Shown piece after piece: positions 51,874 to 54,702 of a stretch of DNA of 64,000 nucleotides. Source of the DNA: a virus; the IMG/VR virus record IMGVR_UViG_3300021430_000595, one strand, 5' to 3'. Every line of letters begins with the position of its first letter. Position 1 is the stretch's first letter. Under the pieces are notes generated by a model that had not been told where the DNA came from, made no database searches, and saw nothing but the letters and a program-made list of their open reading frames with translations. A program made the position numbers and the translations under genes.

Positions 51874-51998
51874 GGTGGGGAGGGTGGGATTCGAACTCCA
51901 CGACCACGAGGTTAACAGCCTTAGAAGTAACTAAGCTTATAGCCGTATGTACAGAAATTAAACCAGTAATACGTGCTCTACCACTGAGCTACCTCCCC
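51874..51998 (-). ncRNA. tRNA(GUU)-like RNA with a 50-nt Y-like module inserted in the anticodon stem
   Basis: GGGGAGG/CCTCCCC acceptor, GCTC/GAGC D-arm, TTCGAAT T-loop; CG[50 nt]AGG-CTGTTAA-CCTCG. Confidence 0.75.
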
Positions 51999-52003
51999 GA
52001 GTA

Positions 52004-52598
52004 TACCGGAAAATGAGCGAGTGAGTTTTCATTTTTGGATTGAATTTTAGAAGTAACTCAACTCGTAGCCGGTAAAAGATTTTAAGATGGTAATTATTTG
52101 TCTAAAATAAAATCCCTTTTGAGGATTCTATAGGATTCGAACCTATTATAACCATAGAAGTAAGACAAAATGTAGCCATCAAATATTTTAATATTCAAAG
52201 AACTAAAGTAAATGGAAATCGTGTCAGTGATGTTTCAGTAAAAGTGAAGTTTAGAAGTAACTGAACACATAGCCATTAAGTTTTTTAAAGTGGAAAGTCC
52301 ATAACTAATTGATGTTTTCGGAATCATAGAAGTAAGTTACATGGATAGCCACCCAATAAGGTGGACGGAAAGAGTATGAGTAATAAACATCCAATTGTTG
52401 ATAGAAGTAACTACATACATAGCCGTCAAATGAGTTTATGTGGAGATTGTGTGTCTAACGTTGTATCTGATAGTTGTATGTTAGAAGTAAGACCCTTGCA
52501 CCGATACTTTTGTCAATTCTAAGACCCAAAACAGAACCACTCCGTGGTTTAGTGTGATGGGTGGTAGACTATCCTCTCGGTGACTCACATAGCCACAT
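52004..52598 (-). ncRNA. array of six further Y-RNA-like hairpin RNAs (52004-52074, 52086-52180, 52211-52277, 52290-52352, 52364-52427, 52437-52598)
   Basis: each unit: terminal stem ending GG, CTA, bulged stem, TTACTTCTA, variable loop, complementary strand, pyrimidine run, CC; stems co-vary. Confidence 0.75.
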
Positions 52599-52629
52599 AT
52601 AATATTTTCAAAGAACTTAATGGGTGATG

Positions 52630-54702
52630 TTACACACCCATTAATTTTCCTGTTTCTTCATAAGAGTAACAGAAGTCCTCGTACTTGAAGAATGTGTCAA
52701 CATTCTCGTCAAGAGTAACTTGTTTACCACGACCTTCTACGTGTAGAAGAACAAGGTCATACACACTTACTTTCGGTAACTCAGCGTATTGTTGAATTGC
52801 TTTAAGAGTGTTTTTAAAGTCACTTCTTGCGGTTACGAAACCATCAGAATCAATATCCAACATGATGTACTCCTTAGTCACCAAATCAATAATCGCGATT
52901 AACGTATTAGTTGATTTAGATTCCAATGATTGACAATTTGAAATTGTCTCAGGTAACCATGTTTTGTTTGACTCAGGATGTTCTCTCTCCATGATACCGA
53001 AAGATGTTTCAAGTGTATCCAAACCACGACCATTGAAGTTTCTCACGTCAATAACTGCATATTTGTAACCATTCTTCAACGCATCTTGGATATCGATGTC
53101 GATATACTCAGCACAAGGTCCTTTTCTGTGTCTCACATCACCTGAGTGAACCGATTTACCAACTCTCAAGTTACTGAAAGAAAGTACATCACTTCTTTTC
53201 TCACCAACAAAGGTAACACTCAAATCTAAGTCTTCAGAACCTCTTTCGTCCATCCAATGAACAAACGGTCTGATTACTTTTGCATCAGGGTTGTCAAGTG
53301 GAACTCTTTGACCTCTGATTGTAGGTTTAGTCGAGAAGTTCATACTTCTCATGTTGGTTGGTAGAGGTATTTTTTTCAATTCCTCATCAATCCAACAGTT
53401 ACCCAATGATTCCAATACTGAAAACTTTTCTCTAAGAGTTTCAAACAACTTAGAGTGGATAGTTTCAACAATTTGTTTTGGAATTGCTGGTAGGTTAGGT
53501 AACTCGGTACGTTTTCTCGCCCCTTTAATCATAATTGACCTATTTGTTTTAGGTTCAGTACGACCTTCAAAGTGTGAGTAAACTTCAAACAATACTTTGT
53601 TTGATGTACCTTTTACCGCCTCACCGAAGTACTTCATGATAAGTTCAATATCTTTTGGATATGTACGAACCAACCAATCAATTCTACGTGAGAATTCACC
53701 CGGTTTTTGAGATAAAACTCTCAAACCATTCTCCAAACCTTTTTTGAATGATTCATTAAGTAAACCATACCAAGAAGTAACCTTCTCGTTACGAATCTTA
53801 TTGAACGCCACATAAGATTTAGGGAATTGATTTTTATATTCACCCGGGTGTAAAATTTCACCCAAACGAACCCATCTTTGGTCTCTTAAAACCATTTCAC
53901 GAGCATCACAGTTGGTTTGTTCAAGTAAACCTAAAATGTATTTTCTTTCTTTACGAGAGAATTTTTTGAATTTGAATTTCTCTCTTTCAGGATTCGTACT
54001 TGTACGAGATGACCATCTGTTCATCCTAACTTCTTTTTGAGGGACTTTAGGTAAAGAGATATCACCACCTGAAAGGTGAACTGCAATTCTCAACACATCG
54101 GTTGTGGTTTTAACAGGTAATCCTTCGATACCCATTGCAGCCAATGTACACAAGTTTTCTTTGAATGGAATTGATTCCGGGAAAACAAGTTTATCACCAC
54201 TGTTCACAAACCATTTAACAATCTCAAGGTCTTGAGGTGTTAATGATGTGTTGATTGACACCAAATCAGTGAAGATTTTTGAGAATCTTTCTGATGTACC
54301 ATACTTAATCAAATTGTATTTGATTTTCTCGAACTTAATGTCCTTTTCGTATGTGTGGGTTGATGGTTCCCATTGACCGTTACTCCAATAGTGCATGATT
54401 GCGTTCATGTACAACTCAAAGTCCGACATCACCATAACTTCTTGTGGGAAGTTTTTATATAATGGTTGGTAATTGCGTTTTCCACCCATTACATTTTTCA
54501 AATGATTCAGAACTTCGTCATTGAAGTTTTGGATAAACGATAAATCTGATTTGGATAATTCGAAGAAGGCATCTTCGTCTAACATGTATCCCCATTGCAT
54601 TAAGTGGGATTGTACTGTTGCTACCGCGATTCTATTGTCCATACCATCGTTTGGAGGACAAACTAAACCTTTTTGGAAGGCTACCAAGTTTCTTGTTGTC
54701 AT
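52630..54702 (-). CDS. Ro/TROVE-like helical protein with C-terminal TerD-like domain
   Basis: IPFKENL, KTTTDVLR, LHPGE, KPGEFSRRIDWLVR in the helical region; TerD-type DLDLS, HSGD, AEYIDID. Confidence 0.65.
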   Translation of the reverse strand: MTTRNLVAFQKGLVCPPNDGMDNRIAVATVQSHLMQWGYMLDEDAFFELSKSDLSFIQNFNDEVLNHLKNVMGGKRNYQPLYKNFPQEVMVMSDFELYMNAIMHYWSNGQWEPSTHTYEKDIKFEKIKYNLIKYGTSERFSKIFTDLVSINTSLTPQDLEIVKWFVNSGDKLVFPESIPFKENLCTLAAMGIEGLPVKTTTDVLRIAVHLSGGDISLPKVPQKEVRMNRWSSRTSTNPEREKFKFKKFSRKERKYILGLLEQTNCDAREMVLRDQRWVRLGEILHPGEYKNQFPKSYVAFNKIRNEKVTSWYGLLNESFKKGLENGLRVLSQKPGEFSRRIDWLVRTYPKDIELIMKYFGEAVKGTSNKVLFEVYSHFEGRTEPKTNRSIMIKGARKRTELPNLPAIPKQIVETIHSKLFETLREKFSVLESLGNCWIDEELKKIPLPTNMRSMNFSTKPTIRGQRVPLDNPDAKVIRPFVHWMDERGSEDLDLSVTFVGEKRSDVLSFSNLRVGKSVHSGDVRHRKGPCAEYIDIDIQDALKNGYKYAVIDVRNFNGRGLDTLETSFGIMEREHPESNKTWLPETISNCQSLESKSTNTLIAIIDLVTKEYIMLDIDSDGFVTARSDFKNTLKAIQQYAELPKVSVYDLVLLHVEGRGKQVTLDENVDTFFKYEDFCYSYEETGKLMGV

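What the first reader, a model, noticed from the sequence alone, without database searches (positions are those of the whole stretch)
51874..54702. Ro-like/TerD protein followed by an array of seven Y-RNA-like hairpin RNAs
Seen: directly downstream of the 690-aa gene are seven units with invariant GGCTA and TTACTTCTA (9-10 nt apart in six of them). Each folds on itself with a different sequence but the same shape: terminal stems TACCGG/CCGGTA, GATGG/CCATC, AATGG/CCATT, GTGG/CCAC, GACGG/CCGTC, TATGTGG/CCACATA; a CUA/pyrimidine internal loop; a bulged second stem; then a variable loop. One loop carries a perfect T-arm (ATAGG-TTCGAAT-CCTAT). Two boxA sites flank or punctuate the array. Established: Ro60/TROVE proteins bind Y RNAs through a bulged terminal stem, are encoded beside them, and bacterial YrlA RNAs mimic tRNA. 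Inference: a phage ribonucleoprotein system with a constant protein-binding handle and exchangeable loops (adaptors, guides or decoys), served by a Ro-like protein with TerD in place of vWA.
Basis: partly seen in the sequence, partly recalled or inferred. Interest (0 to 1): 0.9.

Follow-up and report, generated by a model that had tools for sequence, protein, structure and literature searches.

The report
Phage protein with partner RNA array
A large phage encodes an uncharacterised 690-residue protein followed by seven small folded RNAs that share one constant "handle"; the same protein-RNA pair recurs in very distant phages and in bacterial RNA-repair operons. It therefore looks like an undescribed counterpart of the Ro60/Y RNA particle that carries tRNA-shaped cargo.

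Summary
Six exact GGCTA-N9/10-TTACTTCTA units and a seventh with a ~99-nt insertion lie on the minus strand after the 690-aa gene (0 expected by chance). They share a two-helix fold with strong covariation.

One unit is a circularly permuted handle inside the anticodon stem of a tRNA with anticodon GUU.

A covariance model finds these RNAs only beside homologues of this protein, always on its strand:
- 23 of 23 close phage loci;
- phages of Xanthomonas, Rhodococcus and Rhodobacter, a gut phage and a megaphage (protein 23-31% identical);
- Bacteroidota chromosomes, where RtcB and RlaP repair genes are adjacent.

A pattern-only RNA search led back to the protein in 4 of 5 records.

The protein's C-terminus is a TerD fold (Z 13.7). 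Its helical part resembles Ro60 only weakly (Z 5-6, 220-310 residues aligned) and shows no sequence similarity. The handle is not the Ro-binding motif and matches no Rfam family.

Best reading: a Ro60/Y-RNA-like particle of tRNA repair or quality control, a functional analogue and not a proven Ro homologue. The rival reading, that the handle is excised from tRNAs, is not excluded.

Earlier follow-ups of this scan (e1-5374704, e1-5835088) reached the same reading on other genomes.

The parts
52630..54702 (-). Gene for the 690-aa protein: N-terminal part plus alpha-helical repeat domain (about residues 1-470) and a C-terminal TerD beta-sandwich (about 473-640)
   Evidence: ORF. AF2 model with pLDDT 94.6 and pTM 0.90. 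TerD structures match at Z 13.7 and 12.0 and Foldseek probability 1.00. PHROG 33734, function unknown. Partial match to NF041916, below the cut-off. No Pfam hit.
52617..52644 (-). 10-bp hairpin across the stop codon of the gene, followed by GTTCTTTGA (52608-52616)
   Evidence: Terminator-like site. The 9-mer appears. A comparable inverted repeat across the stop is visible in several related loci.
52437..52599 (-). Unit next to the gene: handle with a ~99-nt structured insertion at the stem-2 bulge
   Evidence: Partial covariance-model match at 52446-52501. Orthologous long units occur in most of the related loci examined.
52363..52428 (-). Canonical handle unit (stem GACGG/CCGUC)
   Evidence: R1 66.6 bits, E 5.8e-14. 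Fold.
52288..52354 (-). Canonical handle unit (stem GUGG/CCAC; 10-nt spacing)
   Evidence: R1 56.1 bits. Fold.
52210..52278 (-). Canonical handle unit (stem AAUGG/CCAUU)
   Evidence: R1 75.7 bits, E 3.4e-16. Fold.
52195..52203 (-). Second GTTCTTTGA site, inside the array
52085..52181 (-). Handle unit whose variable part holds a T-arm (52130-52146) followed by a closed hairpin
   Evidence: R1 43.4 bits. Fold. Orthologous T-arm units occur in L002, L005, L010, L013 and L016.
52004..52074 (-). Canonical handle unit (stem UACCGG/CCGGUA)
   Evidence: R1 64.0 bits. Fold z-score -4.0.
51876..51998 (-). tRNA (anticodon GUU) with a circularly permuted handle (insert 51922-51971) between positions 28 and 29 of the anticodon stem
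   Evidence: Rfam tRNA 41.2 bits with a 63-nt gap in the anticodon arm. Removing the 50-nt insert leaves the arm CGAGG/CUGUUAA/CCUCG (read). Orthologues occur in L002, L005, L010 and L016. Other anticodons occur in L004, L011, L014, L027 and L058.

Best explanation
The gene and the seven RNAs form one ribonucleoprotein system.

Shown:
- The RNAs share a constant handle: an outer stem ending in two G-C pairs; an asymmetric internal loop (CUA opposite N-N-U-U-U); a bulged 8-bp second stem closed by a U-A pair; and an invariant single-stranded UACUUCU.
- This handle occurs next to homologues of the 690-aa protein across distant phages and in bacteria.

Inferred:
- The protein binds the handle.
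- The variable part acts as an adaptor or cargo. In different loci it is a plain loop, an extra hairpin at the bulge, a T-arm module, a YrlA-like tRNA mimic, a whole tRNA, or a tRNA joined through its anticodon stem.
- The particle acts on tRNA-shaped RNA in repair or quality control, together with RtcB ligase and RlaP nucleotidyltransferase where these are encoded alongside. For a phage with about 28 tRNA genes, this would most plausibly protect or restore its tRNA pool against host tRNA-cutting defences.

It works like Ro60 with Y RNAs (the bacterial Rsr-YrlA-RtcB arrangement), but with a different RNA handle and a TerD domain where Ro60 has a vWA domain. Common ancestry with Ro60 is not shown.
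For: RNA structure:
- 34 units give 90.8% paired cells against 65.9% in shuffles, and a covariation score of 0.697 against 0.208. Slid controls give 0.08-0.16.
- The result holds for 55 units that include distant phages.
- G-U pairs fit only the gene's strand.

Co-occurrence:
- Model R1 hits only the array in the 64-kb window.
- It gives 110 hits in 26 loci, all on the gene's strand and next to the gene.
- These include XacN1, Weasels2 and a gut phage (protein 23-31% identical); also Xoo-sp13, megaphage LR745208 and RcXuper, the Puia-bin contig and Bacteroidota chromosomes.

Reverse test:
- A pattern-only scan gave 80 loci. R1 confirmed units in 4 of them, and a fifth (L082) carried the pattern next to a homologue.
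- 4 of these 5 records encode the protein, with the units adjacent in all four.

Context:
- RlaP-RtcB-array-protein in G128, and handle-protein-RtcB in G340.
- RlaP lies beside the gene in XacN1, Xoo-sp13 and RcXuper. RtcB lies about 3 kb away in Weasels2.
- In the window: tRNA genes, SmpB and a metallophosphoesterase.

tRNA cargo.

Protein shape: Ro60 structures are the only chains aligned over more than 200 residues at rmsd about 5 A.
Against: - No binding experiment exists; adjacency and co-orientation are indirect evidence.
- The Ro60 resemblance is below the noise level that the tool states for helical repeats (Z 5.2-6.4), and sequence profiles see nothing.
- The window's own phage record (142 kb, about 45% complete) has no detectable RtcB or RlaP.
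- One homologue-bearing phage, SCTP-2, showed no unit with this model.
- Several bacterial hits are weak, at 14-20 bits.
What they recruit is therefore unknown.
Confidence: 0.6

Rival explanations
1. The handle is a processing or splicing signal rather than a stable partner RNA. It marks insertions in tRNAs, or leader-trailer duplexes around tRNAs. These are cut out with the help of the protein, and the tRNA halves are then joined by RtcB.
For: Removing exactly 50 nt restores a perfect anticodon arm in the window's tRNA. Chimeric tRNAs with six different anticodons carry the handle 5' of the anticodon, at 28|29 or 31|32. One handle flanks a complete tRNA-Met with CCA. RtcB, a tRNA-splicing ligase family, is adjacent in bacteria.
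Against: Most units stand alone, with short loops and no tRNA to release. The YrlA-like unit of Weasels2 has no anticodon arm and cannot yield a tRNA. No nuclease domain was recognised in the protein. The window's phage record has no RtcB.
Confidence: 0.15
2. The RNAs are antidotes or regulators of the protein: an RNA array that sequesters or titrates it, as in type III toxin-antitoxin pairs or autoregulatory decoys.
For: The arrays lie immediately up- or downstream of the gene on the same strand, in variable copy number of 1-7.
Against: The units are not near-identical tandem repeats; they are diverged, covarying paralogues with different cargo. tRNA grafts and RtcB/RlaP neighbours are not explained. 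No toxin-like domain was found.
Confidence: 0.08
3. The RNAs are independent small RNAs or tRNA-derived repeats that sit beside the gene only because both lie in an island of RNA genes.
Against: Adjacency and co-orientation persist at 23-31% protein identity, across phages of four host groups and in bacterial chromosomes without tRNA islands. The order of gene and array flips, but the pairing stays.
Confidence: 0.04

Closest known systems
Ro60 (Rsr, TROVE + vWA) with Y RNAs YrlA/YrlB, including the rsr-yrlBA-rtcBA repair operon (Chen et al. 2014, PMC4201824; Hughes et al. 2020, PMC7790460)
   Same: - The protein gene lies next to one or more small RNAs.
- The RNA ends pair into a long, interrupted stem, and the rest of the RNA varies.
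- Some RNAs carry a tRNA-like domain in the YrlA order (T-arm, closed acceptor, D-arm).
- RtcB is a neighbour.
- The system occurs in phages near tRNA genes.
- The protein is a helical domain followed by a globular C-terminal domain.
   Different: - There is no TROVE signal by Pfam or profile-profile comparison.
- The C-terminal domain is TerD, not vWA.
- The handle has GGCUAY...UUACUUCUA instead of GNCGAA(N)G or GGUCCGA.
- No Rfam Y RNA model matches the handle.
- Arrays reach seven units.
- Whole tRNAs are grafted on in three different topologies.
NCBIfam NF041916, MXAN_6230/SCO0854 family RING domain-containing protein
   Same: Residues 307-674 match profile positions 385-769 at 241 bits. 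The Bacteroidota chromosomal relatives cover most of the profile, and the one scanned against Pfam shows a weak prokaryotic RING hit.
   Different: The score is far below the 600-bit cut-off. The phage protein's match begins at profile position 385, so the N-terminal part of the profile is not covered. The family has a name but no described function, and no paper was found for it.
TerD family (tellurite-resistance, Ca-binding beta-sandwich; PDB 2QZ7, 2KXT, 3IBZ)
   Same: The fold of residues 473-640 matches at Z 13.7, rmsd 2.4 A over 150 residues. The DxDxS and HSGD-type motifs are conserved.
   Different: Here TerD is one domain of a 690-aa protein tied to RNAs. No Ter operon genes are nearby.
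Protein-spliced tRNA introns of archaea and eukaryotes, joined by RtcB
   Same: A folded insertion interrupts the anticodon arm, and an RtcB ligase is encoded alongside in bacterial loci.
   Different: The insertion lies 5' of the anticodon (28|29 or 31|32), not at 37|38. No bulge-helix-bulge motif or splicing endonuclease was seen. Splicing was not tested.
Type III toxin-antitoxin arrays (ToxIN)
   Same: An RNA array lies directly beside its partner protein gene.
   Different: The repeats here are diverged, structured paralogues carrying tRNA-like cargo, and the protein is not a small endoribonuclease.

Membership tests
Ro60 / TROVE (Pfam PF05731) | TROVE domain detectable by sequence | tested here: not met
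   No Pfam family at E <= 1. hhalign of the 83-sequence family alignment against 12 Bacteroidota Ro60 proteins gave probability 0.3%. A profile search of PDB sequences found only TerD.
Ro60 / TROVE (Pfam PF05731) | Ring of HEAT-like helical repeats | tested here: inconclusive
   VIA-align on the whole model: 1yvp_A Z 5.4, 310 aligned; 9l5y_B Z 5.2, 294 aligned; 2nvo_A Z 4.4, 305 aligned. On the N-domain alone: 9l5y_B Z 6.4, rmsd 4.9, 222 aligned; 1yvp_A Z 5.2, 266 aligned. These are long alignments, but they fall below the tool's noise bar for helical repeats. Foldseek found nothing.
Ro60 / TROVE (Pfam PF05731) | C-terminal vWA domain | tested here: not met
   The C-terminal domain is a TerD beta-sandwich.
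Ro60 / TROVE (Pfam PF05731) | Encoded beside its partner small RNAs | tested here: met
Y RNA / YrlA (Rfam RF00019, RF02553) | Match to the Rfam model at the gathering score | tested here: not met
   No Y RNA hit in window 51000-55500 at E <= 10. The Weasels2 unit matches YrlA at 26.4 bits against a gathering score of 69, and only over the tRNA-like core, model positions 23-86.
Y RNA / YrlA (Rfam RF00019, RF02553) | Ro-binding motif GNCGAA(N)G or GGUCCGA in the 5' strand of the stem | tested here: not met
   The 5' strand reads GG-CUA-Y...UUACUUCUA. The motif definition is taken from PMC4201824.
Y RNA / YrlA (Rfam RF00019, RF02553) | 5' and 3' ends pair into an interrupted stem, with a variable remainder | tested here: met
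Y RNA / YrlA (Rfam RF00019, RF02553) | tRNA-like domain (T-arm, closed acceptor, D-arm) | tested here: inconclusive
   The window unit at 52085-52181 has a T-arm and a closed hairpin but no D-arm. The full set is present in Weasels2.
TerD | TerD beta-sandwich fold with conserved acidic, Ca-binding-type motifs | tested here: met
   Z 13.7 and 12.0. Family profile against PDB TerD gave E 0.005. D493, S520-G521-D522, E532 and D606 are invariant. Metal binding was not tested.
NF041916 RING_SCO0854 | Score over the curated cut-off across the full-length profile, including its N-terminal part | tested here: not met
   241.5 bits against a cut-off of 600, covering profile positions 385-769 only.
Type III toxin-antitoxin | Near-identical short tandem RNA repeats beside an endoribonuclease toxin | tested here: not met
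   The units share only the handle core. Mean column identity is 55%, and the helices differ between units.

The most novel reading that the evidence does not exclude
Bacteria and phages may have a protein-dependent way of gating or splicing tRNAs. A handle inserted 5' of the anticodon would keep a tRNA out of translation until the handle-binding protein, an unknown nuclease and RtcB remove it. Affected tRNAs would include GUU, GAA, UUG, UGC and GAU species, and in one relative a CUA amber suppressor whose anticodon is the end of the conserved 9-mer. In phages that gate genes with amber codons, this would put decoding under the control of the particle.
Probability: 0.12. Interest if true: 0.95.

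Novelty: new variant of a known kind. Interest (0 to 1): 0.82.

Why it matters
Ro60/Y RNA is the only well-known RNP of this type in bacteria, and its mechanism is still debated. A second, widespread pairing would show that "ring-or-solenoid protein plus modular tRNA-like RNA" is a general design for handling damaged or foreign tRNA.

Its scale is considerable: about 2,400 protein clusters at 50% identity, found in phages of several host phyla and in bacterial RtcB/RlaP operons. It uses a different handle and a TerD domain.

It would also:
- name a large family of unknown function (PHROG 33734, relatives of NF041916);
- add an RNA family that is missing from Rfam;
- offer cultured test systems (Xanthomonas phage XacN1, Rhodococcus phage Weasels2, Rhodobacter phage RcXuper).

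The tRNA chimeras raise the directly testable question of whether bacteria or phages excise protein-recognised insertions from tRNAs.

Tried and rejected
- **Rfam:** no family matches the handle, in the window or in five other loci.
- **Sequence and fold searches for the helical domain:** Pfam, NCBIfam, PDB sequence searches and Foldseek (pdb, viral) gave nothing beyond family members and TerD. The ESM Atlas was uninformative.
- **Profile-profile comparison with Ro60:** negative.
- **Guide-RNA idea:** Host RNAs could not be tested.
- **The 9-mer as an anticodon-loop mimic:** CUA is not kept in the bacterial versions (UUACUUCA or UUACUUCC), so the conserved core is UU(A/C)CUUC.
- **Eighth TTACTTCTA at 46984:** it has no GGCTA within range upstream and lies far from the array; about one match is expected by chance.
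- **Pattern-only scan of viral contigs:** mostly chance matches; 76 of 80 loci were not confirmed by the model.
- **The search for related loci:** three distant homologues and the family alignment gave nothing. The first genome-contig scan gave nothing.
- **Tools and papers not available:** Burroughs and Aravind 2016 (PMC5062991) is not held. I therefore could not check whether that survey of RNA-repair operons already mentions this protein.
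Full report
**What is there.** The minus strand carries a 690-aa ORF at 52630-54702, followed by seven RNA units down to 51876.
- The pattern GGCTA-N(8-11)-TTACTTCTA matches six times, all in this stretch, with none in 100 shuffles.
- A seventh TTACTTCTA at 52482-52490 belongs to the unit next to the gene. 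In that unit about 99 nt are inserted between the two motifs.
- Each free-standing unit folds in the same order:
  - an outer stem whose last two pairs are always G-C;
  - CUA plus one pyrimidine, opposite about five mostly U residues;
  - a second stem of 3+2+3 pairs with a 1-2-nt bulge, closed by a U-A pair;
  - single-stranded UACUUCUA, then a variable stretch.
- One unit carries a T-arm at 52130-52146.

**The structure is real.** I aligned 34 short units from the window and 13 related phage loci (A3).
- 90.8% of cells form pairs, against 65.9% after shuffling.
- The covariation score is 0.697, against 0.208 after shuffling and 0.08-0.16 with slid partners.
- 12 of 14 pairs show changes on both sides.
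- The result holds for 55 units that include very distant sources.
- G-U pairs fit only the strand of the gene.
- A covariance model (R1) finds only the array in the 64-kb window.

**The tRNA unit.** Rfam calls 51876-51998 a tRNA with a 63-nt gap in the anticodon arm.
I checked this: it leaves CGAGG / CUGUUAA / CCUCG, anticodon GUU.
- The insert is the handle in circular permutation. Its outer stem is closed by a small loop (CUGU-ACAU-ACGG here; CCGU-UUAU-AUGG in L016). CUA, the 3+2+2 second stem and UUACUUCUA are all kept, and the tRNA sits where other units have the variable loop.
- Relatives carry the same graft in tRNAs with other anticodons: GAA, UUG, UGC and CUA at position 31|32, and GAU at 28|29 in a bacterial locus with nested handles.
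- In the contig binned as Puia, another handle encloses a complete tRNA-Met with CCA.

**Link to the protein.** The family is large: 2,401 clusters at 50% identity with E <= 0.001.
- All 23 close IMG/VR loci have 2-7 copies of the 9-mer after the gene.
- R1 gave 110 hits in 26 loci, every one on the gene's strand and next to it.
- At 23-31% protein identity the pairing persists:

| Source | Position of units |
|---|---|
| Xanthomonas phage XacN1 | three units upstream |
| Xoo-sp13, megaphage LR745208, Rhodobacter phage RcXuper | adjacent |
| Rhodococcus phage Weasels2 | four units downstream |
| Human-gut phage | upstream |

- Salicola phage SCTP-2 gave no hit.
- In these distant sources the motifs read GGCCA or GGAUUA and UU(A/C)CUUCU.
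- Reverse test: a pattern-only scan of viral contigs gave 80 loci, mostly chance matches. R1 confirmed units in four, and a fifth (L082) carried the pattern next to a homologue. Four of these five records encode the protein, with the units adjacent in all four. The fifth record is a 15-kb fragment.

**Bacterial versions and context.** Bacteroidota chromosomes encode relatives of about 750 aa, and these have handle units on the same strand. One of the relatives, scanned against Pfam, shows a weak prokaryotic RING hit.
- In G128 the order is RlaP, RtcB, a 161-aa ORF, the RNA array, then the protein.
- In G340 the order is handle, protein, RtcB.
- The 'nucleotidyl transferase' genes beside the XacN1, Xoo-sp13 and RcXuper homologues are RlaP.
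- Weasels2 has RtcB about 3 kb away and five tRNA genes just upstream.
- This is the place Ro60 and its Y RNAs hold in the known rsr-yrlBA-rtcBA operon (PMC4201824, PMC7790460).
- The window itself has a suppressor tRNA upstream, SmpB, a metallophosphoesterase and 27 ARAGORN-called tRNA genes, plus one more that only Rfam scores. Its 142-kb record, about 45% complete, shows no RtcB, RlaP or TROVE.

**The protein.** The AF2 model is confident (pLDDT 94.6, pTM 0.90).
- Residues 473-640 are a TerD fold: 2qz7_B at Z 13.7, rmsd 2.4 A, 150 aligned; Foldseek probability 1.00.
- For the helical part, Foldseek finds nothing in PDB or BFVD except family members.
- VIA-align places Ro60 structures among the few long alignments: 1yvp_A Z 5.4 over 310 residues, phage phiLo Ro60 at Z 5.2-6.4 over 222-294 residues, and Rsr at Z 4.4 over 305 residues. 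These scores are within what helical repeats give by chance.
- Profile-profile comparison with Ro60 is negative.
- I therefore treat 'Ro-like' as a resemblance in layout, not as membership.

**RNA against known families.**
- The Weasels2 unit with T-arm, closed acceptor and D-arm matches Rfam YrlA only in that core (26.4 bits, E 0.002).
- The handle matches no Rfam family.
- It lacks the Ro-binding motif described for YrlA.

**Reading.** The common denominator of all variants is a constant handle tethered to variable, often tRNA-shaped, cargo, encoded beside one protein.
- That fits a Y-RNA-like adaptor particle in tRNA repair or quality control (confidence 0.6).
- The splicing or processing reading explains the chimeras and RtcB, but not the stand-alone units or the YrlA-like unit (0.15).
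- A sequestering array (0.08) and mere co-location (0.04) fit poorly.

**Prior knowledge.**
- No paper was found for the family.
- The 2016 survey of RNA-repair operons could not be read.
- Earlier follow-ups of this scan reached the same reading on other genomes. This window adds the seven-unit array and the permuted tRNA graft.

Noticed in passing
window 54875-54945 (-): Rfam scores a second tRNA (44 bits) directly upstream of the CUA suppressor tRNA. ARAGORN does not call it, and its anticodon loop reads CCGCAAG, without U33.
   Followed up: no
window 59435-59519 (-): An 85-nt tRNA with anticodon GUU has a long variable arm, which is unusual for tRNA-Asn. Together with the handle-bearing GUU tRNA, it means the phage has no ordinary-looking tRNA-Asn in this window.
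   Followed up: partly
window 51203-51838 (-): A GIY-YIG/NUMOD3 homing-endonuclease ORF sits directly after the chimeric tRNA. In the related loci, the conserved 148-aa ORF (PHROG 2574) follows the array without it, so the endonuclease looks like a recent insertion.
   Followed up: partly
window 49830, 52195, 52608, 61133, 63840, 5950, 6192 (all -): GTTCTTTGA occurs 7 times on the minus strand (the searched pattern GTTCTTTRA matches 8 times, against 2.9 expected). It lies 6-17 nt upstream of non-coding RNA starts: the handle array, the tRNA array, and the stretch noted earlier as tmRNA. It could be a promoter element, boxA or a terminator tail.
   Followed up: partly
L027 8689-8811: In a 420-kb contig binned as Puia, a chimeric tRNA uses the last three bases of the conserved 9-mer (CUA) as its anticodon, in the loop UUCUAAA. 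It is therefore an amber-suppressor-type tRNA carrying the handle.
   Followed up: partly
L058 3480-4720 (-): The bacterial array is duplicated. It holds a tRNA (anticodon GAU) with two nested handles inserted at 28|29. Rfam weakly calls these stretches tmRNA (about 20 bits).
   Followed up: partly
window 49875-50603, 56030-56470 and 56470-56931 (-): A metallophosphoesterase, SmpB and an RNase H-like (PF04308) protein flank the system.
   Followed up: no
L018/L020/L021, just after the gene: In some relatives a GIY-YIG-type endonuclease ORF is inserted between the protein gene and the array. The junction appears to be a recurrent target of homing elements.
   Followed up: no
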